Shown here: positions 15,084 through 47,401 of the stretch, one piece after another | Layout: each line of letters starts with the position of its first letter | How positions within the stretch are numbered: the first letter of the stretch is position 1 | NCBI GenBank assembly: GCA_905210995.1 | Contig: CAJLZE010000003.1 | Location: 1 to 56,966 of the forward strand | Reading direction: 5' to 3' | Source: an uncultured Anaerotruncus sp. | GTDB taxonomy: Bacteria > Bacillota > Clostridia > Oscillospirales > CAG-272 | DNA length: 56,966 nt | Notes under the pieces: generated by a model | What the model was told of the DNA's origin: nothing | What the model saw: only the letters and a program-made list of their open reading frames with translations | Database searches by the model: none | Program-made: the position numbers and the translations under genes

Positions 15084-15104
15084 GGTGTTCTCTCCTTTTG
15101 TTTG
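15028..15104. repeat. 5' module repeat (signal-peptide n-region + RBS), P4 copy
   Basis: See 13930-14005. Confidence 0.8.
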
Positions 15105-15946: not shown

Positions 15947-16036
15947 AAAATGTGCCTCGCTGCGCTGATTACCCGCTCTATTATATAATACGGATAATAT
16001 CGCTTTTTTTCTTCAACTTTTTTTATTTTTTTCGAT

Positions 16037-31456: not shown

Positions 31457-31490
31457 GATTTTTTTCCTTTCTTGTGCCGATACGGCGGTT

Positions 31491-32794: not shown

Positions 32795-32806
32795 CTTCTC
32801 CGCTCC

Positions 32807-34165
32807 TTACATTTCGAGCACTTCAATGCCGAGTATGCGGCAAAGATCGCGTATTGCGGCGCGGTTGTCGCCGAAGGTTATGATATAATGCTGGCAGGCA
32901 ACATGATCGGCAAAGCGCGGAACGTCGCGCAGCTCTATCTCAAGCGCCGAAAGCTGCGGCGCGGGCTGCGCCCAGCCGCACTCCTCCCACACGGGCGGCT
33001 TTTTGCCCTCACCGGGCAGCACGTGCATAACATATCTGCCGCCGGTATAAACAAGGCGCGACATGGTGAGCGTTCCGGTCTTTACCGGAGAAACGTTGAG
33101 AATACCCTCGCTCAGCAGCCCGAATGCAGCGGGAAGAACAGTGTATGTATCCCCGTCTACCATATCCGCGGCAACAAAATCGGGAACGCCCGCAAGCACA
33201 CTGTGCTCAAAGAACTCGTAAAACTCAAGGTATCCGGCAAGCTGTCCCGTCAGCTTGTGCATCATGAGCTGAGTGACAGCCCCCAAAGAATCGTTTTCGG
33301 GTATCGTCGTATAACCGTCCTCGGAAAGCAGCATGAATATCGGAGCGGGCGGGAAGCCGCACAGCTTTTTCATTCCGTCAACATCCTTAAGGGATATCGC
33401 GTGATAGTTTCTTTCCTTGGCGATCGACGCAACGGCGAGATAATACCCTGCCGCTTTTTTCATCGTCTCGGGGTTGGCGGGCTTGAGGAAGTTCCACTTC
33501 TTTATGCGTTCCTCTACCACCTTGTCCACGTCTGCCGGGTCAAGCGCACGGTATCTCTGCTCGACCTCAAGAAGCTCAAACGTCTCGATCTCAACACCGG
33601 TCTGCTTTTTGAGCGAAAGGCCGTCGTAGAGCGTGCCGTAAAGGTTCATATCGCGGTAACCCGCCATGCCTATCTTTTCGGAAAGAAGCTCTCCGGCAGC
33701 GACAGCGGCGCTGCAGAAGGATGCGACCTCGGCGGAACGTGTTTTCATGCCTATTATGTCGTAAACGTATCTGAAGCGATAGCCGAGCCCTTCGAACGTC
33801 GCGCGAAGACCGGCTGTGCCCGCCTGATCTGCGGTAGTAACGAGCCTGCCATCCTCATACCAACCGCAAAGCCCCCAAAGCACCATCGGAAGCTCACGGT
33901 AATGCTCGGTGATCTTCACGACCGCATGGGTGGGTATCCACCCGGCAATGCAAAGCACAAGTGCGTCAAAGCGCTCCTTTCCGAGAGCCTCAAGCGCCTC
34001 TCCGATCTGCTTCTCCTCCGGGTCGTCGGCAACCGGATAGACCTTTACGAGCTCAATTCCCTCGCCCTCAAGCGCTGCCGCTGCCGCGGCGCACTTTCTT
34101 ATCACAACATCGACCGGAGTATTTATTTCTCCGAATCCCACAAATCCGATCCTGCTCATTTTCAT
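32807..34165 (-). CDS. L-fucose/L-arabinose isomerase-family protein
   Basis: 452 aa. The overall look (MSRIGFVGFGEINTP..., C-terminal ...HVACQHYIITFGD) matches my memory of this family. No catalytic motif was verified. Confidence 0.5.
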   Translation of the reverse strand: MKMSRIGFVGFGEINTPVDVVIRKCAAAAAALEGEGIELVKVYPVADDPEEKQIGEALEALGKERFDALVLCIAGWIPTHAVVKITEHYRELPMVLWGLCGWYEDGRLVTTADQAGTAGLRATFEGLGYRFRYVYDIIGMKTRSAEVASFCSAAVAAGELLSEKIGMAGYRDMNLYGTLYDGLSLKKQTGVEIETFELLEVEQRYRALDPADVDKVVEERIKKWNFLKPANPETMKKAAGYYLAVASIAKERNYHAISLKDVDGMKKLCGFPPAPIFMLLSEDGYTTIPENDSLGAVTQLMMHKLTGQLAGYLEFYEFFEHSVLAGVPDFVAADMVDGDTYTVLPAAFGLLSEGILNVSPVKTGTLTMSRLVYTGGRYVMHVLPGEGKKPPVWEECGWAQPAPQLSALEIELRDVPRFADHVACQHYIITFGDNRAAIRDLCRILGIEVLEM

Positions 34166-34177
34166 ACCTTTCCTTTA

Positions 34178-35602
34178 TTATTTGTTGATAACACCGTCAA
34201 GCTCGCAAAAACGGCGATAAGCTGCCGAATAATCGGCGCCCGACGGAGCGTATTTTCCTTTTATCTTAACTGCGGCGCGCGCAGCCTCCGCAGCGCTGCC
34301 GTAAAGCCCTATGCCGACCGCGGCAAGCAGTGCCGAGCCGAGGCACGCCGTCTCTGATTCCTCAAGCGTACAAAGCTCCTTGCCGGTCACGTCTGCCTTT
34401 ATCTGCGCCCACAGCGGGCTTGACGCACCGCCGCCGGTTATGCGGATACCGTCTGCATCTATATTCACATATTCAAGCTCCTCGCGCAGCGTGAAAGCGA
34501 CAGCCTCCATTATGGCGCGCGCAAAATGCGCTCTTGTGTGCGCAAGACGCACGCCAGAAAATTCGGCTCCCACCGAAGGATTGTATTTCGGCATAGACGA
34601 GCCGCAAAAATACGGCAGCACGGTAAGCCCGTCACACCCGGGTGCGACCTTTTCGGCTTCCGCGTCAAGCTCACGGAACGAAAGCTCACTTGCAAAGTTG
34701 TTGCGGAACCACTTGAGCGACATTCCCGCAGTCGCCGACCAGAGAAGCAGGCAGTACTTTCCGTCCGCGTGCAGGTGGCACGGAACTATGCTGTCCGCTC
34801 TGTACGGAGGGATGCTGTCCGTGACCGCGCACACGGCAAGCGCCGTACCGGTCATTTCACTCACTCCGCCGGTGTCGGTCACGCCGACGCCGACCGCGCC
34901 GGCGATCTGGTCGAGCGCACCGCACACAACGGATATACCGTCATACTCTCCTGCCTTCTCCGCAGTGCGCAGCACGCGCGGGAGCTTTTTTTCGTCGACG
35001 CCGATAAAGTCAAGCATTTCGCGCCAGAAGCGGCGCTCTCTTATATCAAAATAAACCGAGGACGACTGTATCGTCGGCTCGGTGACAAATTCACCGGTAA
35101 GCCTGAAGAGTATAAAATCTTCAAGAAGGAATATCTTTTCGGTTTTTGCCCACACATCGGGGCGGTTATGCCTGAACCATAAAAGCTTTGAAGCGGGCCA
35201 CGACGCCGTTATCTCGGGCTGTCCCGTGACCTCGTAGACCGTTTTTTTGCCGAAACGGGATTCTATCTGCGCCGCCCCGTCCGCAGCACGGTTGTCGAGC
35301 CATACAACGGCGGGATAAAGCGGTTTTCCCTCTTCGTCGGCAAGTATCAGGGTCTCACCCTGAGTATCCACCGCAAGCGCGTGCGGCTTGCCGCATTCAC
35401 GCGACAGCTTCGCTATCGCCTCGCGGCACATTTCAACGTATTTTTCGGGATCGAATTCGACATACCCCGTCGCCGGGTCGGTGTCGAGCACATAGTCCTT
35501 GGTCACAACGCCGAGGCGTTTTCCGCTGCCGTCAAACTCGGCAGCCTTGAGTGAGGTCGTACCTATGTCGATCCCCATTATCCTGTGATCCGATAATTTC
35601 AT
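34178..35602 (-). CDS. FGGY-family carbohydrate kinase (xylulokinase-like)
   Basis: ATG at 35602 (ORF track extends to 35761). GIDIGTTSLKA phosphate-1 motif, DTQGETL, and C-terminal ITGGGASSPLWAQIKADV. Confidence 0.85.
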   Translation of the reverse strand: MKLSDHRIMGIDIGTTSLKAAEFDGSGKRLGVVTKDYVLDTDPATGYVEFDPEKYVEMCREAIAKLSRECGKPHALAVDTQGETLILADEEGKPLYPAVVWLDNRAADGAAQIESRFGKKTVYEVTGQPEITASWPASKLLWFRHNRPDVWAKTEKIFLLEDFILFRLTGEFVTEPTIQSSSVYFDIRERRFWREMLDFIGVDEKKLPRVLRTAEKAGEYDGISVVCGALDQIAGAVGVGVTDTGGVSEMTGTALAVCAVTDSIPPYRADSIVPCHLHADGKYCLLLWSATAGMSLKWFRNNFASELSFRELDAEAEKVAPGCDGLTVLPYFCGSSMPKYNPSVGAEFSGVRLAHTRAHFARAIMEAVAFTLREELEYVNIDADGIRITGGGASSPLWAQIKADVTGKELCTLEESETACLGSALLAAVGIGLYGSAAEAARAAVKIKGKYAPSGADYSAAYRRFCELDGVINK

Positions 35603-35663
35603 TTTATTTTGTTTTTTATCAACGGCAGGGTTGCCGCGCCGTGGCGCGGCAACCCGCAAAAGA

Positions 35664-36632
35664 TCAGACAGTGGTCTTTCTTCTGATAACGACGACGGCG
35701 CAGGTAACGGATGCGAGTGCGACCGCCGCTGCAGCGACGATAACGGCTCTGCTGTTGTCACCGGTCCCGGGAGCGGGGGTGGGAGTGGGCTTGCCGGTGT
35801 CGGTGGGCCCCTCGGTAGTACCGGAAGGTCCCTCGGTGGTGCCGGGAGCTACCTCGGCATTCACGAAGAGGATAGTGCCCTTTTTGGAGTCGTCATGGTT
35901 CGATTTGACTGTAGAATCATTCCATGTAAGACCGTATACGCGGTTGCTCTTCTGAGCCTCGGTCTCCTTGCTGTTGTTGGCATCGTTGGTGTAGAGGTCG
36001 AATCCGACGCATGTGCCGGCTTCCATCTTTATGTCGGCATAAATGAGGCTGAGGTTGATACGGCACTCCATGACGTAGCCCGTAGCCTTGCCCTGTGCAT
36101 CGGTGAGGATCTTCACGGCGCGGCATTCGTCAACGTTCTGCTCATCGGCGGTCACCTGAGTGTGGAACGTGCCCATGGGCGCATTCTTGAAGTTCGCGCT
36201 CTGTCCGTACACGCCGAGGATATAATAGATGGCGGGAGCGGTGCAGGCAGTGGTGGCTGTTCTGTTATAGTTCGGAGAGATGGAGAACATGATGCTGTCG
36301 TCCTTCCAGAGGTTGCCGCTGGAGGGCCAGATGGCTTTTCCCGCGAGAGTGGTATCTGCCACTTCAACGAGAACGTAGAGATACTTATCATCCCACAAAG
36401 TGCGGAAGGATGCTGTGTGCGGCACGCTGCCTTCGACGTTTACGTAAACGTTTTCGAGCTTCTGCGATTCGGCGGAATTCCATACTTCGTCGATGGTACC
36501 GTCGATCACGGGTGTGCCTTTGGTCGCTTTGATGATCTTCTGCGTGCTGTCAGGCTCAACGGCTGAAACGCCGACGGCAAACGCAGCAACGAGGAGTGCG
36601 GCAAGGGTCAGAATTGCGATCGCTTTTTTCAT
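35664..36632 (-). CDS. CBM9-like (DOMON-like) carbohydrate-binding surface protein with a C-terminal APGTG + TM + RRK anchor
   Basis: Signal peptide ...AVGVSA. IDGTIDEVW...FRTLWDDKYLYVLVEV typical of CBM9-like domains. Thr/Pro/Gly linker. APGTG at 35760-35774 followed by a hydrophobic stretch and RRKTTV. Confidence 0.6.
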   Translation of the reverse strand: MKKAIAILTLAALLVAAFAVGVSAVEPDSTQKIIKATKGTPVIDGTIDEVWNSAESQKLENVYVNVEGSVPHTASFRTLWDDKYLYVLVEVADTTLAGKAIWPSSGNLWKDDSIMFSISPNYNRTATTACTAPAIYYILGVYGQSANFKNAPMGTFHTQVTADEQNVDECRAVKILTDAQGKATGYVMECRINLSLIYADIKMEAGTCVGFDLYTNDANNSKETEAQKSNRVYGLTWNDSTVKSNHDDSKKGTILFVNAEVAPGTTEGPSGTTEGPTDTGKPTPTPAPGTGDNSRAVIVAAAAVALASVTCAVVVIRRKTTV

Positions 36633-36691
36633 TGTACTGAGTTCCTTTCATTGTTGTATTTTTCAACCGGCTGGCGCCGGATGATATACCG

Positions 36692-37753
36692 TCAGTGCTT
36701 TCTGAGCACGAATGCCGAGCCGATCACCGCAATAACGGCGACAGCGCATACGGCAGACGAGCCGCAGCCGCCCTTCTTTTCGCCGGTCGCGGCGGTCGTT
36801 TCGGGGGCATTTGTTTCGGCAGTAGCCTTGGTTGTCTCGGGCACCTTGGTCGTTTCGGGAGCTTTTGATGTCTCGGGCGCCTTTGTCGTTACATCCTGCT
36901 TGGATGTTTCGGGCGCAGGTGTAGTTTCGGGAGCAGGTGTAGTCTCGGGAGCGGGCGTGGTCTCGGGTTCGGTATCGGTCGAGTTGTCAACGCTTACGAG
37001 CTGGATCGTACCCTTGAGGGCGTCGTTCTTATAGGACATGGTATCACACCAGCAAAGACCGACATCGCGCGTGTTGGAGATGCCCGCAATGTTGTCGTTG
37101 ATGTAGATATCAAAGCCGATGCAGGTGTCATAGGTCATCTTTATGTCGGCATATCTCTGCGAAAGATCGACGGCAGCCTCGATAAGATAACCGGTGTCGG
37201 TTATTTTGGTGCGGAAGTTCTTGAAGGTGTCGCGCGGTACCTGATTGAAGTTGGCGGTACCGTCGTTCTTTACGTATTCGCCGCCACCGATGGCACGGCA
37301 GCTAAGTATGTACCAGAAAGCGGGCTCCACCTGTGCACCGGTTTCGACGCGACTGTAGTTGGGCGAGAATGTAAAGCTGACGGAGTTGCGCATCCAGAGG
37401 TTGCCGGCACCGACTGTGGTGAGCTCCCATGTTTCGTCACCGATTGTGGAGTCGGTGACTTCAACGAGAAGATACAGATATTTTTCGTCCCAGAGAGCAC
37501 GGAAAACAGCTGATGTTCCGTTTGTGGGGTTATCGGGGTCGGGGCCGTTGGTGACGAATGTCTTTGAGATCCTGCGCGGCTTTGCATTGTCCCACACGGC
37601 GTCGATCTCACCGTCTATTTCCGGAGTGCCGTAAACGGCATAGGCGATGGGCTGCGATTTGTCGGGCTCGGCGGCAAACACCGGAGCGACCGCGGCAGCG
37701 CACATAACTGCGACGATGAGCGCAGCCAGCACGAAATTGAGCGTTCTTTTCAT
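36692..37753 (-). CDS. CBM9-like carbohydrate-binding surface protein with a PETT-repeat stalk and C-terminal TM anchor
   Basis: ATG at 37753 (ORF track extends to 37843). Signal peptide ...APVFAA. IDGEIDAVWDNA...FRALWDEKYLYLLVEV. (A/K)PETT repeats. C-terminal TAATGEKK + hydrophobic + LRKH. Confidence 0.6.
   Translation of the reverse strand: MKRTLNFVLAALIVAVMCAAAVAPVFAAEPDKSQPIAYAVYGTPEIDGEIDAVWDNAKPRRISKTFVTNGPDPDNPTNGTSAVFRALWDEKYLYLLVEVTDSTIGDETWELTTVGAGNLWMRNSVSFTFSPNYSRVETGAQVEPAFWYILSCRAIGGGEYVKNDGTANFNQVPRDTFKNFRTKITDTGYLIEAAVDLSQRYADIKMTYDTCIGFDIYINDNIAGISNTRDVGLCWCDTMSYKNDALKGTIQLVSVDNSTDTEPETTPAPETTPAPETTPAPETSKQDVTTKAPETSKAPETTKVPETTKATAETNAPETTAATGEKKGGCGSSAVCAVAVIAVIGSAFVLRKH
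36795..36975. repeat. imperfect 15/18-nt in-frame tandem repeats encoding the (A/K)PETT stalk
   Basis: Recurring GT(T/C)TCGGG(A/C)GC units, e.g. GGTGTAGTTTCGGGAGCAGGTGTAGTCTCGGGAGCGGGCGTGGTCTCGGG. Confidence 0.7.
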
Positions 37754-37778
37754 GATGGGTCTTCCCTTTCTGTTGTTT

Positions 37779-39416
37779 TTATTTATCTCCCGTCGGCGGA
37801 CAGACACAACGGAGAGTTTCGTTATTGGTGTGATAGATCGCACGCAGCTCGTTCATGGCTTCAATGCAGCGCGCCGAGGCGGTGGGCTTGAAGTCACAGC
37901 CGAGAAGCTCGTGATCTATGACCGCGCGGAGATACATCATCCTCCACCTTGCAGTTCTGCGTATGCTCTCGGGCAGCTTGCGATCGTAAGCCGAAAGAAT
38001 TTCGTAAACATATTCGACATCCGAGGTATCGGAGATCGGGAATCTGTATGCATTGTAATCCGTACCGCGCCACAGACCTGTCTCGCTGCGCTCAATGGCA
38101 TCGACAAGGTCGGTGTCGCCGCAGCAAAATTCAAATTTCGCATATCTGCGCACCGCGTCATGCGAAATAAGCGTCTCGCCGCTGTAATACGAGAGCATGA
38201 CGAACTTGTTGATATCCTCGAATATGCCCTCTGAGTAGGGGTAACCGCCGTGATAGAGGTGACCGCTGCCCATGTTAGTGCGGTCAAGGAAGCGGCAGAG
38301 CGGATTTGTGCCGAAGCCGCCCCACGGGCGGCACCCGTGCATGCTTATTTCGGGGAAATCGATAAACTTCACGCCCTTCGGCACACCGTCGCGCTTTATG
38401 CACTCGGGGAGCACGCCGCCGTGGAAGAAGGACATGATGTAATCAAAGCCGCTGACCTCGCCCGCGGTGAGCTTTTTCCAGAAAGCATCCCACTCGCCGG
38501 GGATAAAACGGTCGAAATACCACGTCGAAAGTATAATCTTCGTGCCGGGCAGCACCTCATTCGTAAGTTTTACGAATTCGGGAAGTATGCGGAGATATCC
38601 GTTCGAGCCCCACGGCGCACAGTCGGGGCAGGTGCAGCCGCCCTGATCGTAAGGCCAGTAGCATATATAGTCCGGCTGTACGTCTGCAAACGCCTCAAAT
38701 ACCTCGCGTCTTTCACGCAGTATCTCCTCCATGCCGCCGGGCTTTGAGGGGCATATCTCACGGTTGTATATGCCGTCCGGTTTTGTGTGATATCCGTTTT
38801 CGACAAGGAACGTCGCGCGCAGCTCAACGGGCGACGAATCAAAGCCCTCGTTCGAGAGCATGGTCATCGACGCCTTCATGCCGATCTGCTTTGCATATTT
38901 CATAAACGCCTTGAGACGGTTTATGAGCTCCACGGATTCGGGCTGGTCGACCGATCTGAAATGGTGCATATCGTACCAGACGAGCAGCGCATTGCAGCCG
39001 CGCAGTGCAAGGTCCTCAATGACCTCATAGACCTCCTCTACCGGCGCATTGTGATAAAAATTGTGGAAGTGCGTTGCAAAATACATACCGCGCAGGGGCT
39101 TTGCGGGAGTATGATCTACCTTTTTTGACGAAGGAACGAAACCGCCCTCACCGTCGAAGCGCGAATCGACCAGATAACGTCCGACAGCGGCATGGAGGGC
39201 GCAGTCGTTCGCTGCGGTAAAGGCAACGGTATTGCCGTCGGGAACGACAGTGTACCTGTCGTTTTCAAGTGCCGCATCCACCGCAAGAGTGAAGGTGTAA
39301 TCCGCATTGTCTCCGAGACGGCAGCAACGCTCCCCGAGACGGCGCTCGAGCGTGTGCGAAAGAACCGTGAAGCTCTCCGGTCCCATCGAGATATTTTCAA
39401 GTCTGAATGTTGTCAT
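37779..39416 (-). CDS. uncharacterised glycoside-hydrolase-like protein (N-terminal alpha/beta domain + TIM-barrel-like core + helical C-domain), paralogue A
   Basis: 545 aa with no signal peptide. Conserved with paralogue B: RGMYxAxHFxNFxHxAP, EICPxxPGGM, YDxGGCTCxxC (CTCPDC at 38619-38636), ILSTWxFDR, DFPEISM, GGxPYSEG. Confidence 0.45.
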   Translation of the reverse strand: MTTFRLENISMGPESFTVLSHTLERRLGERCCRLGDNADYTFTLAVDAALENDRYTVVPDGNTVAFTAANDCALHAAVGRYLVDSRFDGEGGFVPSSKKVDHTPAKPLRGMYFATHFHNFYHNAPVEEVYEVIEDLALRGCNALLVWYDMHHFRSVDQPESVELINRLKAFMKYAKQIGMKASMTMLSNEGFDSSPVELRATFLVENGYHTKPDGIYNREICPSKPGGMEEILRERREVFEAFADVQPDYICYWPYDQGGCTCPDCAPWGSNGYLRILPEFVKLTNEVLPGTKIILSTWYFDRFIPGEWDAFWKKLTAGEVSGFDYIMSFFHGGVLPECIKRDGVPKGVKFIDFPEISMHGCRPWGGFGTNPLCRFLDRTNMGSGHLYHGGYPYSEGIFEDINKFVMLSYYSGETLISHDAVRRYAKFEFCCGDTDLVDAIERSETGLWRGTDYNAYRFPISDTSDVEYVYEILSAYDRKLPESIRRTARWRMMYLRAVIDHELLGCDFKPTASARCIEAMNELRAIYHTNNETLRCVCPPTGDK

Positions 39417-39431
39417 GTTTTTCTCCTTGTA

Positions 39432-41108
39432 TCATCTTCCGAGCGGAGGGCAGACCGCCGGCTGGATCCTTGTATCATACGCGTGGTAGAGCGCCCAAAG
39501 CTCACGGAAACATTTTTGCGCCCTCGCGGAATTCATCGGAATGAAATCGTGAGTATAAAGCTCGTAGTCGATCACGGCACGCAGATATATTATCCTCCAA
39601 CGCGGGTCGCGCTTTGCCGTATCGTTCATTGCCGCATCGGCTTCGGTAACGAGCCTGTACGCCTCGCGTATCGCAGCCGGAAAATGCGGCGTTACCCGCA
39701 GCCTGCCGTCCGGCATGGTCTCGACCTTGCGCCAGAGAGTGATCTCAAGCAGCTCCACGGCGCGCAGAAGAGGCTCCGGATCGTTTATCCCGAAATAAAA
39801 GCGCACATAATCCCTTACCGCATCGGCGGTATCCGCATGAGCGCCGCTGTAATGCGACATGCAGCAGAATTCGTTTATGTTCTCCCAGAAGCCCTCCGAA
39901 TACGGGAAGCCCCCGTCAAGAACATCGCCGACCGACGAAAAGAAATTATCGAGCCTCATCGTAAGCGGGTTTGCGCCGTAGCCGCCCCACGGCTTGCCGC
40001 CCCACATACTGATCTCGGGGAAATCTATCACCGAGCGCCCGTCGGGAGCACCGTGCTCTGCCGTGAGCGGCATAAACTGACCGTCGCCGTACACCGCCAT
40101 GACGTATTCCGCCCACGGGTATTTACCAGCCGAAAGATTTTCGTAAAGACGCTTTCCTTCATCTCGCAGATGTCTGTCGAAATGCCATGTGGAAAGTATC
40201 AGCTTTGCATCGGGGAAATATTCGGAAAGCAAAGGCTTTACCGACTCCTCATATACCTTGATAAAGCCGTTTTCGCTCCATCGCGAGCAGGCGTCACAGG
40301 TGCAGCCGCCCTCGTCATACGCCCAGTAAGCAAAATACTTTACCGGCACATCCGAAAACAGCTCAAAGAACTCACGGTGACAGCGGCGTATCTCATCCAT
40401 GCCGCCGGGCAGATTGGGGCATATCTCCTTGTGAAGCTCGGCATAATTCGGGGTTATGTATTCGCCGCGCATATCCCACGGCGCCGCTATATCCTCGGAA
40501 CGGTCGAGAAAACCCGTGTTTGAGAAAAGTATCAGCGCGGGAGCTATACCAAGCTCGGCGGCGCAGGCGAATATCTTCTTGAGTCTATCTGCCGTTTCAA
40601 ACGCCTCGGGGGATGTGAAAGATCTGTAATGCTGAGGCGCAAGGCAGAGCATGAGGGTGTTGCATCCCCAAAGCGCCAGGTCCTCGATAAACGGCGTTAC
40701 CTCCTCCATCGGAGCGGCGTGCCAGAAGTTGTAGAAATGAGATGCAAGATACATACCGCGCACCGAGCTTTTCATCTCATGTTCTATCGGCAGCTCAGGC
40801 GGCACAAAGCCGCCGCCGAAATCAAAGCTGCCGCTCATGAAGAAACGCCCGAGCGCCGCATATACGGTGCAGAGATCACAGACGGTCACGAGAGCGCCGC
40901 CCTTTCCGTCGTCAATTATCGAGTAGCTATCCTTTCGGTTTTCCGTTTCGCCGTCCTCGTGCGGAACGATATCGAGCGTGACGGAATATCCGCCGTCGCC
41001 GAGAGCGCATCCGCGGTGCTCGAGGATTCGTACGACGGTCTTCTTTATACGCTCAAATTCCTTTTCCGGGATATCGGCGTTTTTCAAAGCAAGAACGAAC
41101 ATTTTCAC
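39432..41108 (-). CDS. uncharacterised glycoside-hydrolase-like protein, paralogue B
   Basis: 558 aa with no signal peptide. Same conserved blocks as paralogue A (CTCDAC at 40287-40304). Confidence 0.45.
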   Translation of the reverse strand: MKMFVLALKNADIPEKEFERIKKTVVRILEHRGCALGDGGYSVTLDIVPHEDGETENRKDSYSIIDDGKGGALVTVCDLCTVYAALGRFFMSGSFDFGGGFVPPELPIEHEMKSSVRGMYLASHFYNFWHAAPMEEVTPFIEDLALWGCNTLMLCLAPQHYRSFTSPEAFETADRLKKIFACAAELGIAPALILFSNTGFLDRSEDIAAPWDMRGEYITPNYAELHKEICPNLPGGMDEIRRCHREFFELFSDVPVKYFAYWAYDEGGCTCDACSRWSENGFIKVYEESVKPLLSEYFPDAKLILSTWHFDRHLRDEGKRLYENLSAGKYPWAEYVMAVYGDGQFMPLTAEHGAPDGRSVIDFPEISMWGGKPWGGYGANPLTMRLDNFFSSVGDVLDGGFPYSEGFWENINEFCCMSHYSGAHADTADAVRDYVRFYFGINDPEPLLRAVELLEITLWRKVETMPDGRLRVTPHFPAAIREAYRLVTEADAAMNDTAKRDPRWRIIYLRAVIDYELYTHDFIPMNSARAQKCFRELWALYHAYDTRIQPAVCPPLGR

Positions 41109-41109: not shown

Positions 41110-42354
41110 TCACAGCTTTATATCCGCTTCGTCATCAAGTACGCGCGACGTGCCCGGAACATACGGGATATCGAGCTCGGTTATCCGGTTTGCAGCGTTG
41201 AGGATCTCCTTTACATGCAGCTCGTTTGTAAGATGCGCATTGGCTCTGTCGCCGAGGTAAACCGTAAGCGCCTCGTCCGAGGTCGTATATGTCGCCACCT
41301 CGGGATCGATCGCCGTGTAGACATCGACCGTTCCGCCCTTGCCGCCGTGATGAGCCGTCTGGCAGAAGTCCGATTTCAGGTACGAACCGTACATTGCGGT
41401 AAGGATGTCGTTTTCGATTATGCACGCATCGGCAAGGAACATCATACCGTACCCCGCCTCGCGCACACGGAAAACGACCGAGGTGTTGTTCCAGTCGCGC
41501 GTGTCTTTCCATGAGCGGAAGGACGTGCGAAAGTCCTCCTGCGTTGCAAGAAATTCTATCTCCGCGCCGCCTATTTGCCGCACCTCTCCCGTGTGTATTT
41601 TCGTGACCTTTCCCTCACGGTTGAATGCGCGAAAATTCGCTATCGAGCGCTGACGCAGAAAATATTCGTTCTTTTCGAACCAATCGATGCAGTCGCGCTC
41701 GCCGGGATAGTTGCATATCAGCTCGTCTATGCGCACCTCGGGGCAGTCGTAGTATTTTTCGGTGAATTTTATAAACCCGCCGGTGTGGTCGTTGTGCGTA
41801 TGCGTGATGATCCACGCCGCTACGACTATATTTTCGGGATCGGGAGCCTGTTTTTTAAGCACGTTCATTATGCCGTCGGCAAAGCCTTCGTTTGCCACGC
41901 CGCCGTCTATAACGATGAATCTGCCGTCCCCGAGCCGTAAAACATAGCACATAAGCCCGCAGTTGACCGGCACGCCGCGGAAATAATTATTCTGCATGAA
42001 CGTTCTGCCTATCTGAGTGAGCAGCGGCTTGCAGATCTTTTCACCGCAGCAGTCCGCAGCGTTGTCGCTCATGTTTTCGGACGGCTCGACGATAACTCTG
42101 AATGTCGAATCGAACGGCGTAAAATATGTCGTGACACCGCATGAGCCTTTGCGGTATGCGGCAAAAAGGTTGCCCGCAGCGGCGCGCTCCCAAAGGAGCG
42201 CAAAGCCCGCCTCGGTAAGTTTTCCGCAATATCCGCGCCATGCATCGGCAGATGAATGCTCAACTATTATCTGCCATGCGCCGTCGCCGTCGGCGACGAC
42301 CTCCGCCCCCTCGGGATAACCCGGTATGGCGGAAAGTATTTTGTTCTGTATCAT
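41110..42354 (-). CDS. MBL-fold metallo-hydrolase (ComEC-C-terminal-like), cytoplasmic paralogue
   Basis: 414 aa with no signal peptide. VIDGG...ITHTHNDHTGGF (HxHxDH) and ...CQTAHHGG. Confidence 0.7.
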   Translation of the reverse strand: MIQNKILSAIPGYPEGAEVVADGDGAWQIIVEHSSADAWRGYCGKLTEAGFALLWERAAAGNLFAAYRKGSCGVTTYFTPFDSTFRVIVEPSENMSDNAADCCGEKICKPLLTQIGRTFMQNNYFRGVPVNCGLMCYVLRLGDGRFIVIDGGVANEGFADGIMNVLKKQAPDPENIVVAAWIITHTHNDHTGGFIKFTEKYYDCPEVRIDELICNYPGERDCIDWFEKNEYFLRQRSIANFRAFNREGKVTKIHTGEVRQIGGAEIEFLATQEDFRTSFRSWKDTRDWNNTSVVFRVREAGYGMMFLADACIIENDILTAMYGSYLKSDFCQTAHHGGKGGTVDVYTAIDPEVATYTTSDEALTVYLGDRANAHLTNELHVKEILNAANRITELDIPYVPGTSRVLDDEADIKL

Positions 42355-42370
42355 TTGTTGCCTCGTTCGG

Positions 42371-44140
42371 TCAATATACGTTTCCCTTATCCGTGACCGC
42401 GGAATTTCCCGGTGTGTAAGGGAGCGGGAACTCGGTTATGCGGCAGGCGCAGTTGATGACTTCCTTTACATGGAGCTTTCTGAGCAGGTGAGCGTTGTGC
42501 GCATCTTTTTTGTAAAGCTCGAACGCCTCGTCGGATGTCGTGAACAGCGCCACTGTCGGATCTATCGCATTGTAGACTGCTGCCGTTCCGCCCTCGCCGC
42601 CGTGATGCGCGACCTGGCATATATCCGATTTCATATATCCGCCCCACATCTTGACCGCGATCCCGTTTGAATCCACCTGCGAGTCGCCGAGGAACATCAG
42701 CTTCTGCCCCGCGATCGTAACGCGGAAAATAAGCGAGGTGTTGTTCCAGAGCTTCGTATCGGCAAACGTGCGCTTCGAGGTGTAGTAATCCTCGGGCGTG
42801 TAGAGAAATTCGACCCCCGCACCGCCTATATTGCGTGTCTCGCCGGTGTGTATCTTTGTCAGCTTCGCCTTGGGGTAATAAACCTTGAAGTTGTTGAGCG
42901 TCTTTTTACGGTTGTTGAGCTCATGGTCGGGGCTGGCGTCGCAGGTATCCTCGCTCGGGAAATTGAGGATGAGCTCGTCAAGCGTCACCCGCCTGCCATA
43001 GGTCTCCGAAAACTTGTTGAAGCCGCCCGTGTGGTCGCTGTGCGTGTGTGTAATGATCCATGCCGCGATGTGTATATGGGAAGGATCGGGTGCCTGAGAC
43101 TTCATGGTATCCATAATGCCGGCAGCAAAGCCCTCTGTCGCAACTCCGCCGTCAATGACGATGAAACTGCCGTTCTCGAGCCGAAGCACAAAGCACATAA
43201 GTCCGCAATTGACGGGCACGCCGCGGTACGAGCCGGTCTTTGAGAAGGTCCTGCCTATCATCGTAAGGCGCGCATCGCATTTTTTCTCCACCGTCGCGGT
43301 ATCGGCACTGCGGTCGCTCATATTGGACGCAGGCTCGGATATTATACGGACGGTGTTGTTGAACGCCGTAAAGTAGACTGTGACTCCTACGTCACCCTTT
43401 TTGTACTGAGCAAAATTATTGGAGTTTTCGGTGCGGTCAAAGGTCATCTCAAAGCCCGCTTCCGCCAGTCTTGCGCAGTATGACGCAAACGCCTCGGCAG
43501 AGCTTTTTTCGATCACGTTCTCGTATGCCTTGTCGCCTACCGAATATATAATGACCTTATTTGCACCTTCGAAAGTGGGAATGGCATCAAGCGTTTCGCT
43601 GACGCTGCCCGTTATCGCTATCGGCTGCGCGAATTCGGCGCCGCCCTCAAGCAGATCCGTAAACCGGCGCACGGCGGTCGCGAGAGAGGTGTCGTTCCAG
43701 CCGAAAACAACGATCTTGTGACCGACGGTCCTCACGGCATACCCGCCGTAACCGGTCTCGGCTGCCACCTGCCGCGACTCGGGGTATGAGGTCTGCCCGA
43801 CGAGTATTTCAAAGCTCTCGGATGAATGTTCCTCGCCCGGCATGACGAAATCGGTGCCGATCTCGGGATTGCCGCCCGAATATTTTCTCAGCGCAGAGCT
43901 TATCTCCATCGCCGCTTCCTGCTCGGCGGCAGTGCCCTCGTCGGGTCTCACGGTGCGGTAGTTTACGGTGCTTCCCTCCCAAAGAGCGGGAAAGCTCACC
44001 GCTTCGGGCGCGGTCGTGACGGCATCCGATGTGCCGTCGCCCGTGCCGTCATTTTTGCATGCGGCAAAAAGCGGCAAAAGCATCAGCGCGCAAAGGCAGA
44101 CCGCAAGCGCGCGCAATACAAACGGTGCTGTTTTTTTCAT
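42371..44140 (-). CDS. MBL-fold metallo-hydrolase lipoprotein, extracellular paralogue with an extra N-terminal domain
   Basis: Lipobox LLPLFAAC. VIDGG...ITHTHSDHTGGF and ...CQVAHHGG. About 175 extra N-terminal residues relative to the cytoplasmic copy. Confidence 0.7.
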   Translation of the reverse strand: MKKTAPFVLRALAVCLCALMLLPLFAACKNDGTGDGTSDAVTTAPEAVSFPALWEGSTVNYRTVRPDEGTAAEQEAAMEISSALRKYSGGNPEIGTDFVMPGEEHSSESFEILVGQTSYPESRQVAAETGYGGYAVRTVGHKIVVFGWNDTSLATAVRRFTDLLEGGAEFAQPIAITGSVSETLDAIPTFEGANKVIIYSVGDKAYENVIEKSSAEAFASYCARLAEAGFEMTFDRTENSNNFAQYKKGDVGVTVYFTAFNNTVRIISEPASNMSDRSADTATVEKKCDARLTMIGRTFSKTGSYRGVPVNCGLMCFVLRLENGSFIVIDGGVATEGFAAGIMDTMKSQAPDPSHIHIAAWIITHTHSDHTGGFNKFSETYGRRVTLDELILNFPSEDTCDASPDHELNNRKKTLNNFKVYYPKAKLTKIHTGETRNIGGAGVEFLYTPEDYYTSKRTFADTKLWNNTSLIFRVTIAGQKLMFLGDSQVDSNGIAVKMWGGYMKSDICQVAHHGGEGGTAAVYNAIDPTVALFTTSDEAFELYKKDAHNAHLLRKLHVKEVINCACRITEFPLPYTPGNSAVTDKGNVY

Positions 44141-44146: not shown

Positions 44147-45628
44147 TTATTTCTTCATGCCGGAAATGGCTGCTTCGATATCCGACTGGAATTTCTTCTT
44201 ATACATATCGAAGGAGGATTTGATGTTGGGGTTTTGGTTCGCATGGAGCGTATTGAGCAGACCGACGCAGTTGCCGAAGTTGTTGGCAAGCGCAATGTCC
44301 ACCTGTCCCTTTTCAAACACCATATCTATCATCTTGATATCCGTCGGGTTGTTGGCGCACTTGTAATGAAGGATATTGCCGATAAGGGCATTAAGAAGCT
44401 TTTCGTGCGAAACGGCAAACATCGTTTCAAGCACAAGAGCGGTCCTCTCGAAATCGGAGGTCGTGGAGGGAATAACAAGCCCTTCGACATAGCTGTAGAC
44501 CGGAGCAACGTAATCCTGCTGATCTTCGCTGTACTTGGGAACTATAACAAGACCGTACTCAAAGTCAAGGTTGCGCACAGACTGCACCGAATATGTTGCG
44601 GTCGCCTGGAAAAGCGCACGCCCCTCGTTGAAAACAGCAGCATAGTTATCGGATGCGGCGCCCGAGGAGAAGCCCTCATATCTGTTGGGACGAACGCCCG
44701 CGATGGCTACGGTGGGATCGATGACGAATTTGTTGAGGAAGTCGGTATAAACGTTTATGTAGCGCTCGCTGAGCCCTTCATATACCGGATAACCGCTGTC
44801 GTCGTTGTGCGTAAGTGTTTCGCCCGAGCTTATCATAAGGTTGCGGAGGTGGTTCACGTGTCCGGTAAAGCCGAGCACATCGGTCGAAACATCATAAACA
44901 CCGTCGGCATTGTAATCCTTGGCGGCGATCTTCATCATCGAGTACATCTTCTCATAGGTCCATGTGCCCGCGGTCACGCAGTCATAGGGGCTTTCAAGAT
45001 TGTTTTCGCTGATAAGCTGCTTGTTGAACGCGTAAATATAAAAGCCGCTGTAATAGTTGAGGTGTCCGTCACCGAATATAACATAGCGCTTTGTGCCGAT
45101 GTTCACGGTGTCGTTAAAGTTTTTTGCCCACCACGGGTTTTCAAGATTGATCCCGTCGACCTCGTTTATATCAACGACCTCGCCTCTCAGAAAGGACTGG
45201 AGAGCGGTGCCCGTCGGGAGCTGGCAGACGTCGTAAAGGTGAGTCTGCGTGCTTACCGCAGTGGCAATATCTTTGGAAATATTCTGCGAGTTCACCTCGG
45301 AGAAGGTTATATTGAGTCGGTCCTGAACGATATTCTGACGGCTGTAAACAATGTCGTCGAGCACGTTCTTTCCCTGCTCCTCAACGGTCAGCGCATCATA
45401 CGACCATGTTGTGGGGCGGGTGAGTATCTTGAACTCATACTTGTCATAATTCATTACGGGCAGCGCCTCGTATGCCTCTGTGGTCTCTGCCACGGGAGCG
45501 GTCGTGCCGCCGGCTACGGATGTGCCGTCTCCGTTTCCGTCATTCTTGCTGCACGCCGCAAGCGACGCGAGACAAAGCACGGCAAGCGCAAGGCACAAAA
45601 GCCTTTTGAATGTTTTTGAGTTTTTCAT
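44147..45628 (-). CDS. extracellular solute-binding lipoprotein (large LplA-type ABC SBP)
   Basis: ATG at 45628 follows GGAGGATC. Lipobox LASLAAC. About 490 aa, overall SBP family-1-like. Confidence 0.65.
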   Translation of the reverse strand: MKNSKTFKRLLCLALAVLCLASLAACSKNDGNGDGTSVAGGTTAPVAETTEAYEALPVMNYDKYEFKILTRPTTWSYDALTVEEQGKNVLDDIVYSRQNIVQDRLNITFSEVNSQNISKDIATAVSTQTHLYDVCQLPTGTALQSFLRGEVVDINEVDGINLENPWWAKNFNDTVNIGTKRYVIFGDGHLNYYSGFYIYAFNKQLISENNLESPYDCVTAGTWTYEKMYSMMKIAAKDYNADGVYDVSTDVLGFTGHVNHLRNLMISSGETLTHNDDSGYPVYEGLSERYINVYTDFLNKFVIDPTVAIAGVRPNRYEGFSSGAASDNYAAVFNEGRALFQATATYSVQSVRNLDFEYGLVIVPKYSEDQQDYVAPVYSYVEGLVIPSTTSDFERTALVLETMFAVSHEKLLNALIGNILHYKCANNPTDIKMIDMVFEKGQVDIALANNFGNCVGLLNTLHANQNPNIKSSFDMYKKKFQSDIEAAISGMKK

Positions 45629-45685
45629 TTGATCCTCCAGACGATTATGTGAGATCATGCAGATGTGTCCTTTTTTGGATTGAAA

Positions 45686-45847: not shown

Positions 45848-45876
45848 TTGACAATTGCGCGACATTGCGCTAAAAT
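45848..45876 (+). promoter_or_regulatory. candidate promoter of the ceramidase-like gene
   Basis: TTGACA (45848-45853), 17-nt spacer containing a duplicated ATTGCGC, TAAAAT (45871-45876). Confidence 0.5.
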
Positions 45877-45940
45877 AAGGTCAAGCACAGTCTGCGGCAT
45901 CCTTTGCGCCGCGGCAATATACGAAAGGCACTGTCAAATA

Positions 45941-47356: not shown

Positions 47357-47401
47357 AAACCGCGGCGTCTGAGTCTTTTGACTCAGACGCCGCGGTTTTT
47401 T
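47355..47401. terminator. bidirectional intrinsic terminator
   Basis: AAAAACCGCGGCGTCTGAGT-CTTTTG-ACTCAGACGCCGCGGTTTTTT. Confidence 0.85.

What the first reader, a model, noticed from the sequence alone, without database searches (positions are those of the whole stretch)
37779..41108. Tandem paralogues of an unrecognised hydrolase-like family with a conserved C...CxCxxC cysteine cluster
Seen: the two adjacent cytoplasmic proteins (545 and 558 aa) share several blocks. (1) An N-terminal alpha/beta-like domain. (2) A core with RGMY.A.HF.NF.H.AP, LA..GCN.L. (3) EICP..PGGM.EI, then about 30 residues, then YD(Q/E)GGCTC..C (38619-38636 and 40287-40304). (4) ILSTW.FDR, DFPEISM, PWGG.G.NPL, GG.PYSEG. 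(5) A helical C-terminal domain ending C.PP.G. Established: the three-part layout (small alpha/beta domain, (beta/alpha)8 barrel, helical bundle) is that of the GH20/GH67/GH89-type hydrolases. I cannot place these sequences in any family from memory. Inference: a new or poorly described glycosidase-like family with a structural or catalytic metal (4-Cys) site, with candidate acid residues in YD(Q/E)GG, FPEIS and PYSEG.
Basis: partly seen in the sequence, partly recalled or inferred. Interest (0 to 1): 0.62.

Follow-up and report, generated by a model that had tools for sequence, protein, structure and literature searches.

The report
Unannotated GH20-like glycosidase family, Cys4 site
Two neighbouring genes of a probably common gut Clostridia bacterium encode members of a large, so far unnamed enzyme family that is a distant cousin of the GH20 sugar-cleaving enzymes, carries a conserved four-cysteine (probably zinc) site next to its predicted active site, and sits in an operon for an unidentified sugar-degradation pathway.

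Summary
Genes A (37779-39416, minus strand, 545 aa) and B (39432-41108, minus strand; most likely start 41102, 556 aa) are paralogues (39% identity, E 7e-137). All motifs sit at the stated coordinates.

Neither protein matches Pfam, NCBIfam or any PDB sequence. They belong to a big family: more than 1,000 clusters at 50% identity, in many phyla, named only 'hypothetical protein'.

AlphaFold models are confident (pLDDT 94.5 and 92.3). They show an N-terminal alpha/beta domain, a (beta/alpha)8 barrel and a helical bundle. The nearest folds are GH20 (GcnA type), GH89, GH84, GH115 and GH138, at TM about 0.5-0.63 and 9-15% identity. Profile comparison proves distant homology to GH20 (96.9%, E 1.4e-10), but only for the N-domain and barrel strands 1-3.

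Across 97 divergent members C222, C261 and C266 are invariant and C263 is in 95/97. D257, E396 and W299 are invariant, and position 356 is Glu (93) or Asp (4). The GH20 Asp-Glu pair is not conserved.

My best reading is a new glycoside-hydrolase family of the GH20 superfamily with a structural Zn(Cys)4 site like that of GH42. The substrate is unknown. Conserved neighbours are an AraA/FucI-like isomerase, an FGGY kinase, a ceramidase-like amidase, and phosphodiesterase- or sulfatase-type enzymes.

The parts
37779..39416 (-). Gene A, 545 aa. It is the A-type paralogue (YDQGGCTC), cytoplasmic, preceded by an AAGGAG ribosome-binding site.
39432..41108 (-). Gene B. It is the B-type paralogue (YDEGGCTC). 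The ORF is 558 aa from the GTG at 41108. The likely true start is the ATG at 41102 (556 aa) behind a GAGGTG Shine-Dalgarno sequence. There are 15 nt between the B stop and the A start.
39117..39416 (-). A, residues 1 to about 100: N-terminal alpha/beta domain, homologous to the GH20 'domain 2' (GH20b), GH67N and NAGLU_N type.
38226..39104 (-). A, residues about 105-397: (beta/alpha)8 barrel. Strands are at 108-113, 143-147, 181-187, 250-254, 293-297, 326-329, 351-353 and 388-391.
   Evidence: DSSP on the model
37782..38225 (-). A, residues 398-545: C-terminal helical bundle.
38751..38753 (-). A Cys222 (EICP), the first ligand of the predicted Zn(Cys)4 site, in the loop after strand 3. It is present in 97/97 members. 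In the confident part of the GH20 profile alignment it pairs with a Cys of Bacteroidota GH20s.
38619..38636 (-). A Cys261-x-Cys263-x-x-Cys266, immediately after strand 4 and D257. Conservation is 97/97, 95/97 and 97/97.
38646..38648 (-). A Asp257 (YD), at the C-terminal end of strand 4, invariant in 97/97. It is the predicted general acid/base.
   Evidence: the role is inferred
38349..38351 (-). A Glu356 (FPEIS), just after strand 7. The position is Glu in 93 and Asp in 4 of 97 members. It is the predicted nucleophile or general base.
   Evidence: the role is inferred
38229..38231 (-). A Glu396 (PYSEG), just after strand 8, invariant in 97/97. It is predicted to bind the sugar, by motif parallel with the GH20 'W-T-E' after strand 8.
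   Evidence: the role is inferred
40419..40421 (-). B Cys228 (numbering from the ATG at 41102), equivalent to A Cys222.
40287..40304 (-). B Cys267-x-Cys269-x-x-Cys272.
40314..40316 (-). B Asp263, equivalent to A D257. It is followed by Glu264, where A has Gln258.
40014..40016 (-). B Glu363, equivalent to A E356.
39894..39896 (-). B Glu403, equivalent to A E396.
41110..42354 (-). Cytoplasmic MBL-fold metallo-hydrolase (HxHxDH motif), 414 aa, abutting gene B. The family profile is nearest to the ComEC nuclease domain and to the Pce/CbpE teichoic-acid phosphorylcholine esterase.
42371..44140 (-). Lipoprotein paralogue of the MBL-fold hydrolase, 589 aa, extracellular.
44147..45658 (-). Lipoprotein, probably a sugar ABC substrate-binding protein (only a weak match), and the first gene of the operon. 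A promoter-like site lies at 45766-45738 on the minus strand.
45848..47356 (+). Divergently transcribed amidohydrolase resembling the neutral ceramidase catalytic domain (ATHTH motif), with no signal peptide. It co-occurs with the family in 12 of 80 loci.
35664..37843 (-). Two CBM9-like surface proteins with Pro/Thr-rich linkers and a C-terminal membrane anchor. Gene callers give 353 and 322 aa.
30141..35761 (-). Downstream catabolic genes: an FGGY (XylB-like) kinase, an AraA/FucI-superfamily isomerase, an archaeal-type TIM, a KpsF-like SIS sugar-phosphate isomerase, YjbQ, and an FSA/TalC-type aldolase. There is no strong minus-strand terminator between 45658 and 30141.
28988..30049 (-). LacI-family regulator with its own perfect consensus promoter (30107-30079). 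A LacI gene co-occurs with the family in 12-13 of 80 loci.

Best explanation
A and B are two old tandem paralogues of a large family that has no name yet. The family is a very distant branch of the GH20 glycoside-hydrolase superfamily. Each protein is a cytoplasmic three-domain enzyme: a GH20b-type N-terminal domain, a (beta/alpha)8 catalytic barrel and a helical bundle.

I propose that they are glycosidases that trim an oligosaccharide imported by the operon's ABC system.

Inferred mechanism: the invariant Asp257 at the end of strand 4 is the general acid/base. Glu356 after strand 7 is the nucleophile (retaining) or the base (inverting). Glu396 after strand 8, together with R109, H116, N189, Y256, W299 and Y394, holds the sugar. 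This is the classical two-carboxylate arrangement on strands 4 and 7, as in GH89 and clan GH-A. It is not the substrate-assisted Asp-Glu mechanism of GH20.

Cys222 (loop after strand 3) and Cys261/263/266 (directly after Asp257) bind a structural Zn2+ that braces the loop carrying the catalytic acid. The topologically identical C-x40-[acid]-CxCxxC site of GH42 beta-galactosidases does the same.

The monosaccharide released is then probably isomerised by the AraA/FucI-like isomerase, phosphorylated by the FGGY kinase, and fed into central metabolism through the SIS isomerase, FSA aldolase and TIM. The MBL-fold enzymes here, and the EEP, sulfatase or metallophosphoesterase enzymes in other lineages, probably remove a phosphate or sulfate ester decoration from the substrate.

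Shown: the fold, the remote GH20 homology, the conservation pattern and the gene neighbourhoods. Inferred: hydrolase activity, residue roles, zinc binding and the pathway.
For: Fold. AF2 gives pLDDT 94.5 / pTM 0.95 for A and 92.3 / 0.93 for B. The top Foldseek hits are all glycoside hydrolases with the same three-domain layout: GH20 GcnA/GH20C, GH89, GH84, GH115 and GH138, at E about 1e-14 and TM 0.5-0.63.

Homology. hhalign of the family against GH20 gives probability 96.9%, E 1.4e-10, over 220 columns covering the N-domain plus strands 1-3. The family profile hits GH20 structures in the PDB at E 1.6e-5. Weak Pfam hits to GH20b (36/87), GH67N (20/87) and NAGLU_N (18/87) recur across members.

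Conservation over 97 members down to 27% identity: D257 97/97, E396 97/97, position 356 Glu 93 + Asp 4, C222, C261 and C266 97/97, C263 95/97, N189 96/97, W299 97/97. All of these lie at the C-terminal ends of barrel strands in the model.

Fusions of family members to GH3, GH43, an esterase-like alpha/beta-hydrolase, LamG and CBM-like modules.

Zn precedent. GH42 has the acid/base Glu148, then C153-x-C155-x-x-C158, plus C113, binding a structural Zn (PMC8573354). Here the pattern is D257, then C261-x-C263-x-x-C266, plus C222. Bacteroidota GH20s carry Cys at the matching positions ('ICAG', 'GGDEC', 'CPxC'). About 18/97 members have Sec signal peptides and none has a twin-arginine motif, which is hard to reconcile with an Fe-S cluster.

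Context. The genes sit in a tight 13-gene operon. Across 80 loci from several phyla the recurrent neighbours are FGGY 13, isomerase 12, ceramidase-like 12, LacI 12, MBL 14, S1 sulfatase 12, GDSL esterase 9 and EEP lipoprotein 8.
Against: No activity, metal content or substrate is known for any member. The GH20 homology stops before strand 4, so the equivalence of D257 to a known catalytic residue rests on strand position only. The extended hhalign register and an ungapped register disagree by 2-3 residues. I had no access to model coordinates, so neither the D257-E356 distance nor the clustering of the four Cys in space was measured. Many of the 80 loci are short contigs and many come from related genomes, so the neighbour counts are neither complete nor independent. 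The window's operon has an SBP but no cognate permease genes next to it. CAZy/dbCAN could not be queried, so a recently created CAZy family that lacks a Pfam or NCBIfam model cannot be excluded.
Confidence: 0.6

Rival explanations
1. They are simply very divergent GH20 beta-N-acetylhexosaminidases using the GH20 substrate-assisted mechanism. The Asp-Glu pair after strand 4 would polarise the substrate's 2-acetamido group and protonate the leaving group.
For: There is real homology to GH20 in the N-domain and strands 1-3, including the substrate-binding Arg of the RG.. motif. GH20 structures are the top Foldseek hits. Paralogue B has Asp-Glu (YDEGG). The ceramidase-like amidase in the locus could deacylate an N-acyl amino sugar.
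Against: The GH20 catalytic-domain model PF00728 matches 0 of 87 members even at E<=1. The residue after the invariant Asp is Gln in 47, Glu in 27 and something else in 23 of 97 members, and Gln in 75 of 88 locus copies, so the acid/base Glu of GH20 is not a family feature. Where GH20 has the acetamido-binding Tyr after strand 7, this family has a conserved Glu/Asp. The downstream pathway (aldose isomerase plus FGGY kinase) is not an amino-sugar pathway.
Confidence: 0.1
2. The barrel is not a glycoside hydrolase. Instead it is a glycoside phosphorylase or transglycosylase, a sugar-phosphodiester 'uncovering' enzyme, or some other esterase or lyase acting on a decorated sugar.
For: No activity is known. 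Neighbours are rich in phosphodiesterase-type enzymes: Pce/ComEC-like MBL, EEP, metallophosphoesterase and NAGPA 'phosphodiester glycosidase'. The catalytic half of the barrel has no detectable sequence similarity to any GH family.
Against: All confident structural neighbours are glycoside hydrolases. Fusion partners are GH3, GH43 and CBM-like modules. The invariant carboxylates on strands 4, 7 and 8 are the classic GH barrel signature.
Confidence: 0.15
3. The Cys cluster is catalytic or redox-active rather than structural. It could be an Fe-S cluster, or a Zn-activated cysteine nucleophile as in GH127 beta-L-arabinofuranosidase (recalled from memory).
For: The cluster starts only four residues after the invariant D257 and is as conserved as the putative catalytic residues. 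Many hosts are strict anaerobes.
Against: The same C-x(about 40)-[acid]-CxCxxC topology in GH42 binds a purely structural Zn (PMC8573354). About 18/97 members are Sec-exported and none has a Tat motif, which argues against Fe-S. All four Cys would be needed as metal ligands, leaving none free as a nucleophile, and three conserved carboxylates are already available.
Confidence: 0.08

Closest known systems
GH20 beta-N-acetylhexosaminidases, especially the GcnA (S. gordonii, 2epo) and GH20C (S. pneumoniae, 5a6b) type, which have a C-terminal helical domain
   Same: The three-domain order is the same. The N-domain and barrel strands 1-3 are demonstrably homologous, at hhalign 96.9% and E 1.4e-10, including the Arg of the 'RG..' strand-1 motif. 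There is an acidic residue at the end of strand 4 and an aromatic-Ser/Thr-Glu motif after strand 8. Bacteroidota GH20s have Cys at positions matching the Cys4 cluster.
   Different: Identity is 9-14% and TM only 0.5-0.6. No member matches the GH20 catalytic-domain model. The Asp-Glu pair is not conserved, being Tyr-Asp-(Gln/Glu/other) instead. A conserved Glu/Asp replaces the strand-7 Tyr. The Cys4 site is universal here but only sporadic in GH20.
GH89 alpha-N-acetylglucosaminidases (human NAGLU 4xwh; C. perfringens CpGH89 4a4a/2vcb)
   Same: These give the best TM-scores normalised to the query, 0.59-0.63, with the same N-domain / barrel / helical-bundle order. There are weak NAGLU_N hits in 18/87 members. 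GH89 uses two carboxylates: the title of entry 4a4a names E483 and E601. I recall these lying on strands 4 and 7, which is the arrangement proposed here for D257 and E356.
   Different: There is no sequence match to the NAGLU barrel or C-terminal models. The acid is Asp rather than Glu. GH89 has no Cys4 site that I know of. No residue-level structural alignment could be obtained.
GH42 beta-galactosidases (the Zn-Cys cluster)
   Same: The metal-site topology is the same. One Cys lies about 40 residues upstream (C113 there, C222 here). The strand-4 catalytic acid comes next (Glu148 there, Asp257 here). CxCxxC follows within 4-5 residues. In GH42 the Zn is structural (PMC8573354).
   Different: The domain architecture differs and there is no sequence similarity (0/87 Pfam hits to GH42). 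GH42 has Asn-Glu at strand 4. The Cys cluster is not conserved across GH42 (PMC8573354), whereas here it is essentially invariant.
GH84, GH67/GH115 and GH138 hydrolases
   Same: They share the N-terminal alpha/beta domain plus barrel architecture and appear among the Foldseek hits at E 1e-12 to 1e-13. GH67N gives weak hits in 20/87 members.
   Different: There are no catalytic-domain sequence matches. The GH84 Asp-Asp pair is absent. TM is about 0.5.

Membership tests
GH20 | Match to the GH20 catalytic-domain model (Pfam PF00728) | tested here: not met
   A and B give 0 Pfam families at E<=1. PF00728 is not among the families hit by any of 87 divergent members at E<=1. hhalign homology ends before strand 4.
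GH20 | N-terminal GH20 'domain 2' (PF02838, GH20b) | tested here: met
   There are weak but recurrent hits in 36/87 members, best E 1e-8. The profile against the PDB gives E 1.6e-5. hhalign gives 96.9%. A and B on their own are below detection.
GH20 | Adjacent Asp-Glu catalytic pair (H-x-G-G-D-E) at the end of strand 4 | tested here: not met
   Asp257 is invariant, but the next residue is Gln 47 / Glu 27 / other 23 of 97. A has Asp-Gln and B has Asp-Glu. The preceding residue is Tyr in 92/97.
GH20 | beta-N-acetylhexosaminidase activity by substrate-assisted catalysis | not testable with these tools
   This needs an enzyme assay.
GH89 | Match to the NAGLU barrel and C-terminal models, and two catalytic Glu (E483/E601 in CpGH89) | tested here: inconclusive
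   There is no NAGLU barrel hit, and NAGLU_N is weak in 18/87. The fold match is the best by TMq, at 0.59-0.63. D257 and E356 are topologically plausible equivalents, but no residue-level alignment was available.
GH84 | Match to the GH84 catalytic model, and an Asp-Asp pair after strand 4 | tested here: not met
   There is no Pfam hit. The sequence after strand 4 is Tyr-Asp-Gln/Glu.
GH67 / GH115 | Match to the GH67 middle (barrel) domain model or to the GH115 model | tested here: not met
   Only GH67N (the N-domain) gives weak hits, in 20/87 members, and there is no barrel hit. GH115 is only a fold-level match at TM about 0.57.
GH42 | GH42 catalytic-domain model, Asn-Glu acid/base, trimerisation domain | tested here: not met
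   There is no Pfam hit. Strand 4 ends in Tyr-Asp. The architecture is different. Only the Cys4 site topology is shared.
Zn(Cys)4 structural site (GH42 type) | Four conserved Cys in the pattern C-x(about 40)-CxCxxC flanking the strand-4 loop | tested here: met
   C222, C261 and C266 are in 97/97 members and C263 in 95/97. The spacing is 39, against 40 in GH42.
Zn(Cys)4 structural site (GH42 type) | Bound zinc, with the four thiolates within coordination distance | not testable with these tools

The most novel reading that the evidence does not exclude
The family founds a new glycoside-hydrolase family in which the GH20 scaffold has switched from substrate-assisted catalysis to a two-carboxylate mechanism on strands 4 and 7, and has fixed a Zn(Cys)4 brace. 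Together with the co-travelling AraA/FucI-like isomerase, FGGY kinase, ceramidase-like amidase and phosphodiesterase- or sulfatase-type partners, it defines a previously undescribed catabolic pathway. The substrate would be an ester-decorated glycan or glycoconjugate. The pathway would operate in what are probably widespread gut Clostridia and in environmental Chloroflexota, Planctomycetota and Verrucomicrobiota.
Probability: 0.4. Interest if true: 0.75.

Novelty: new variant of a known kind. Interest (0 to 1): 0.6.

Why it matters
More than a thousand sequence clusters (at 50% identity) in many phyla carry no annotation at all. They include a protein whose exact sequence is on record in 581 blocks of the public assembly collection; the contigs I read came from metagenome assemblies, one labelled human gut. 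Assigning these proteins a fold, a probable active site and a metal site turns a 'hypothetical protein' into a testable enzyme.

If the activity is found, it would add a CAZy family and show how the GH20 scaffold can change mechanism. It would also give a handle on an unknown sugar pathway (a new isomerase, kinase and amidase) that gut and rumen Clostridia, and soil and aquatic bacteria, use to feed on a glycan nobody has yet identified.

Tried and rejected
(1) Direct family assignment failed. Pfam, NCBIfam and PDB phmmer on A and B gave nothing, and a profile of close homologues against the PDB also gave nothing.

(2) E190 of an apparent 'NE' motif, a clan GH-A-like acid/base, was rejected. 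It is only 61/97 conserved and is Thr in paralogue B.

(3) I tried to get full-length GH20 sequences from the big protein search using a 118-aa fragment. It returned only fragments, so that search was wasted. I solved the problem through annotated plasmid records instead.

(4) The idea that the N-terminal region of the MBL and EEP lipoproteins is the same GH20b-like domain was rejected (hhalign probability 1.2%).

(5) Literature searches for a characterised member, for a Zn site in GH20 or BT0459, and for the GH89 catalytic strands found nothing usable. Only the GH42 Zn precedent was confirmed.

(7) Single-sequence PDB searches for the isomerase and orf502 were empty. Profiles were needed.

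(8) An Fe-S cluster was considered and judged unlikely because of Sec-exported members.

(9) Substrate guesses (sulfoquinovose, D-arabinose, tetroses, teichoic acids, GIPC-type sphingolipids) were considered. None is supported well enough to state.

Full report
OBSERVATION. Gene callers on identical public contigs start B two codons later, giving 556 aa. That ATG at 41102 is preceded by GAGGTG, and A is preceded by AAGGAG. A and B align over their full length at 39% identity, E 7e-137, so they are true paralogues. All the quoted motif blocks are present in both. 38619-38651 encodes YDQGGCTCPDC and 40287-40319 encodes YDEGGCTCDAC. Neither has a signal peptide.

NO KNOWN FAMILY BY SEQUENCE. Pfam-A (E<=1), NCBIfam (E<=1) and PDB sequences give nothing for either protein. 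A profile of 52 close homologues also finds nothing in the PDB. Yet the family is large. There are 1,179 hits among the scored candidates in the 90%-clustered collection. An exhaustive HMM search of 1.84 billion representatives finds 1,016 clusters at 50% identity, 340 of them below 1e-30. Among the sources that give any name, it is 'hypothetical protein'. The one exception is a fusion protein named after its GH43 half. In species-representative genomes 290 loci encode a relative. They come from Clostridia/Oscillospiraceae MAGs of human, ruminant, horse and bird guts, and also from Planctomycetota, Chloroflexota, Verrucomicrobiota, Lentisphaerota, Armatimonadota, Gemmatimonadota and Acidobacteriota. 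The exact sequence of A is on record in 581 blocks of the assembly collection. The four contigs shown (up to 0.5 Mb) are ENA metagenome assemblies, one of them labelled human gut, and all have the same gene order.

FOLD. AlphaFold2 models built on the family alignment are very confident: A at pLDDT 94.5 and pTM 0.95, B at 92.3 and 0.93. DSSP on the model of A shows three parts. The first is an N-terminal alpha/beta domain (about residues 1-100). The second is an eight-stranded barrel, with strands at 108-113, 143-147, 181-187, 250-254, 293-297, 326-329, 351-353 and 388-391, each followed by a helix. The third is a helical bundle (398-545). Foldseek against the PDB returns, for both paralogues, only glycoside hydrolases of this three-domain type at the top. 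These are GH20 GcnA and GH20C, GH84, GH89 (NAGLU, CpGH89; the best TM normalised to the query, 0.59-0.63), GH115 and GH138. All are at E about 1e-14 to 1e-12 but only TM 0.5-0.63 and 9-15% identity.

REMOTE HOMOLOGY. A profile of 87 divergent members reaches GH20 structures at E 1.6e-5 over the N-domain and the first barrel strand. Scanned one by one, 36/87 members give weak hits to GH20b, 20/87 to GH67N, 18/87 to NAGLU_N and 4/87 to DUF4838. No catalytic-domain model of any GH family recurs. I built a small GH20 alignment from six annotated plasmid genes of Actinomycetota, Bacteroidota and Halobacteria. hhalign of the family against it gives probability 96.9%, E 1.4e-10, over 220 columns. The aligned region is the N-domain plus strands 1-3 up to the helix before strand 4. 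The family's 'vRGiYfAtHF' pairs with GH20's 'RGxMLDvsRHF'. Detectable similarity ends before the catalytic strand 4. The family is thus a distant branch of the GH20 superfamily, not a member of GH20.

CONSERVATION. Counts below are in 97 representatives down to 27% identity to A.
- Cysteines: C222 97, C261 97, C263 95, C266 97.
- Carboxylates: D257 97; E396 97; position 356 Glu 93 + Asp 4.
- Others: W299 97, N189 96, Y394 96, N119 95, Y256 92, H116 91, R109 89.
- The residue after D257 is Gln 47 / Glu 27 / other 23, and in 88 gene copies from the fetched loci it is Gln 75 / Glu 8.
- E190 is 61/97 and is Thr in B. E220 is 62/97. Neither is a family-wide catalytic residue.
All the invariant polar residues lie at or just after the C-terminal ends of barrel strands, where TIM-barrel hydrolases have their active sites.

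THE CYS4 SITE. One Cys lies in the loop after strand 3. The other three, as CxCxxC, start four residues after the invariant strand-4 Asp. GH42 beta-galactosidases have the same topology: acid/base Glu148 on strand 4, then C153-x-C155-x-x-C158, plus C113 forty residues upstream. There the cluster binds a Zn2+ that stabilises the catalytic domain without taking part in catalysis (PMC8573354 and the work it cites). Here the upstream spacing is 39.

Two Bacteroidota GH20s in my alignment carry 'DVICAG ... YIHVGGDEC PKVRWEK C PK C'. The Cys of 'ICAG' pairs with C222 inside the confident hhalign segment. In the extended, low-confidence alignment the 'DEC' and 'CPxC' cysteines pair with C261, C263 and C266. 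So the site may be an old feature shared with a GH20 subgroup. I found no paper describing a metal there.

About 18 of 97 members have Sec-type signal peptides and none has a twin-arginine motif (heuristic). This speaks against an Fe-S cluster and for Zn. In the exported forms disulfides are also possible.

MECHANISM (inferred). Counting without gaps from the start of strand 4, GH20 'YIHIGGDE' lies over 'Y250-ICYWPY-D257'. This puts D257 on the GH20 acid/base Glu and Y256 on the GH20 Asp that orients the acetamido group. The Cys-anchored hhalign register differs by 2-3 residues, so this equivalence is not settled. Where GH20 has the acetamido-binding Tyr after strand 7 ('YLD'), the family has 'FPE356IS'. 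After strand 8, GH20 'LWTE' parallels 'PY394-S-E396'.

The most economical reading is that D257 (strand 4) is the general acid/base, E356 (strand 7) is the nucleophile or base, and E396 is a sugar-hydroxyl ligand. That is the 4/7 two-carboxylate arrangement of GH89 (catalytic E483 and E601 per the title of entry 4a4a; strand positions from memory) and of clan GH-A. It is not GH20's substrate-assisted chemistry. I could not measure distances because model coordinates are not exposed.

CONTEXT. On the minus strand the gene order is as follows.
- SBP-like lipoprotein (44147-45658)
- MBL-fold lipoprotein (42371-44140)
- cytoplasmic MBL-fold paralogue (41110-42354)
- B, then A
- two CBM9-like anchored surface proteins (35664-37843)
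- FGGY kinase
- AraA/FucI-like isomerase
- archaeal-type TIM
- KpsF-like SIS isomerase
- YjbQ
- FSA-type aldolase
- LacI
 The gaps are very short. There is a promoter-like site upstream of the SBP gene and no strong terminator on that strand until after LacI.

Fusion partners of family members elsewhere are GH3, GH43, an S9/AXE-like esterase, LamG and HpiC1/CBM-like plus Big_5 modules.

I clustered all ORFs of 80 fetched loci. Tandem family copies are common, up to three in a row. The B-type then A-type pair is conserved in several Clostridia even where each copy is only about 44-57% identical to its window counterpart, so the duplication is old. Recurrent neighbours:
- MBL hydrolase: 14 loci
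- FGGY kinase: 13
- the isomerase: 12, including Chloroflexota, Phycisphaerae and distant Bacillota
- orf502: 12
- LacI: 12
- a signal-peptide-less S1 sulfatase with an SGSH_C domain: 12, in several phyla
- SBP: 11
- a GDSL esterase: 9
- an EEP-domain lipoprotein: 8
- in two loci, a metallophosphoesterase, a NAGPA 'phosphodiester glycosidase', an HD protein and a GH29 fucosidase.

A profile of orf502 matches the catalytic domain of neutral ceramidase (2zws, E 1.1e-11), including the ATHTH motif. The isomerase profile matches L- and D-arabinose isomerases only at about 1e-4, and its best NCBIfam hit is the sulfoquinovose isomerase SftI at 1e-9, far below that model's cutoff. The MBL profile is nearest to ComEC's nuclease domain and to the pneumococcal teichoic-acid phosphorylcholine esterase Pce/CbpE, which places it in the phosphodiesterase branch.

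The picture is a cytoplasmic glycosidase step linked to a novel isomerase-kinase route and to enzymes that remove phosphate or sulfate esters or N-acyl groups. The substrate cannot be named from these data. Caveats: many loci are short, and several come from related genomes, so the counts are neither complete nor independent.

COMPARISON AND NOVELTY. The family works like, and descends from the same stock as, the GH20/GH84/GH89 group. It fails the defining tests of each: catalytic-domain models, the Asp-Glu or Asp-Asp pair. Its metal site works like that of GH42 without any sequence relationship. I found no characterised member, but I could not query CAZy/dbCAN. I rate it a new variant of a known kind: a probable new GH family with altered catalytic machinery and a fixed Zn(Cys)4 brace.

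VERDICT. Confidence that these are glycoside hydrolases of a new GH20-superfamily family with a structural Zn site is about 0.6. Individual residue roles and the pathway are inferences. Interest is 0.6. New GH families are found regularly, so a specialist would be interested rather than astonished. What raises the value is the size and complete anonymity of the family, its probable abundance in the gut, and the unknown pathway attached to it.

Noticed in passing
window 45848-47356 (+): A 502-aa ORF with no Pfam, NCBIfam or single-sequence PDB hit turns out, at profile level, to be a homologue of the neutral ceramidase catalytic domain (2zws E 1.1e-11; ATHTH motif). It is cytoplasmic and lacks the ceramidase C-terminal domain. 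In distant Bacillota it lies inside the core operon, for example L053: LacI-FGGY-orf502-isomerase-FAM-FAM. The annotated TTG start overlaps a consensus promoter, so the true start is probably further downstream.
   Followed up: partly
window 30141-35761 (-): This is an unusual sugar-catabolic gene set: a XylB-like FGGY kinase, a very divergent AraA/FucI-superfamily isomerase (best NCBIfam hit is the sulfoquinovose isomerase SftI, at only 37 bits), an archaeal-type TIM, a single-SIS KpsF-like isomerase, YjbQ and an FSA-type aldolase. It does not correspond to any pathway I can name. The isomerase-kinase pair travels with the family across phyla.
   Followed up: partly
window 41110-44140 (-): Two paralogous MBL-fold hydrolases, one a lipoprotein and one cytoplasmic, each with an N-terminal region of 130 to 300 residues that matches nothing known. 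The MBL domain is nearest to ComEC and to the Pce/CbpE teichoic-acid phosphorylcholine esterase. In a related clade an EEP-domain lipoprotein with a similar-looking N-terminal region takes its place (L048:8222-9940).
   Followed up: partly
L017, L019, L024-L027, L048, L056, L057, L060, L071, L077 (e.g. L019:13821-15260): S1 formylglycine-type sulfatases (CxPxR motif, PF00884 plus SGSH_C) without signal peptides lie next to family members in several phyla. In Chloroflexota they come with a sulfotransferase-like gene, a GFO oxidoreductase and Amidohydro_2 genes. Cytoplasmic sulfatases are unusual.
   Followed up: partly
L086:2255-4573 and L088:2246-4567 (Bacteroidota GH20 genes): These GH20s carry a Cys set ('ELGC', 'ICAG', 'GGDEC', 'CPKC') flanking the catalytic Asp-Glu. 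It lines up with the family's Cys4 cluster. Streptomyces and haloarchaeal GH20s lack it. A close homologue has a solved structure (BT0459, 6q63) in which a metal could be looked for.
   Followed up: partly
window 35664-37843 (-): Two tandem CBM9-like proteins with a signal peptide, Pro/Thr/Glu-rich repeats (PETT/APETT) and a C-terminal hydrophobic anchor. They are probably surface glycan-binding proteins of the same operon. Homologues are present in 8-9 of the 80 loci.
   Followed up: no
window 47355-47400: A perfect 20-bp-stem inverted repeat flanked by A and T runs. It acts as a bidirectional terminator between orf502 (+) and the GH36 alpha-galactosidase gene (-).
   Followed up: no
window 12146-16639: A lower-GC stretch (0.45-0.50) holds several 200-290-aa minus-strand ORFs with no Pfam match. 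It is possibly foreign DNA.
   Followed up: no
window 44147-45658 (-): The operon's SBP-like lipoprotein has no ABC permease genes beside it in this window. In other lineages (L053, L068) two permease genes and an SBP gene lie right next to the family genes.
   Followed up: no
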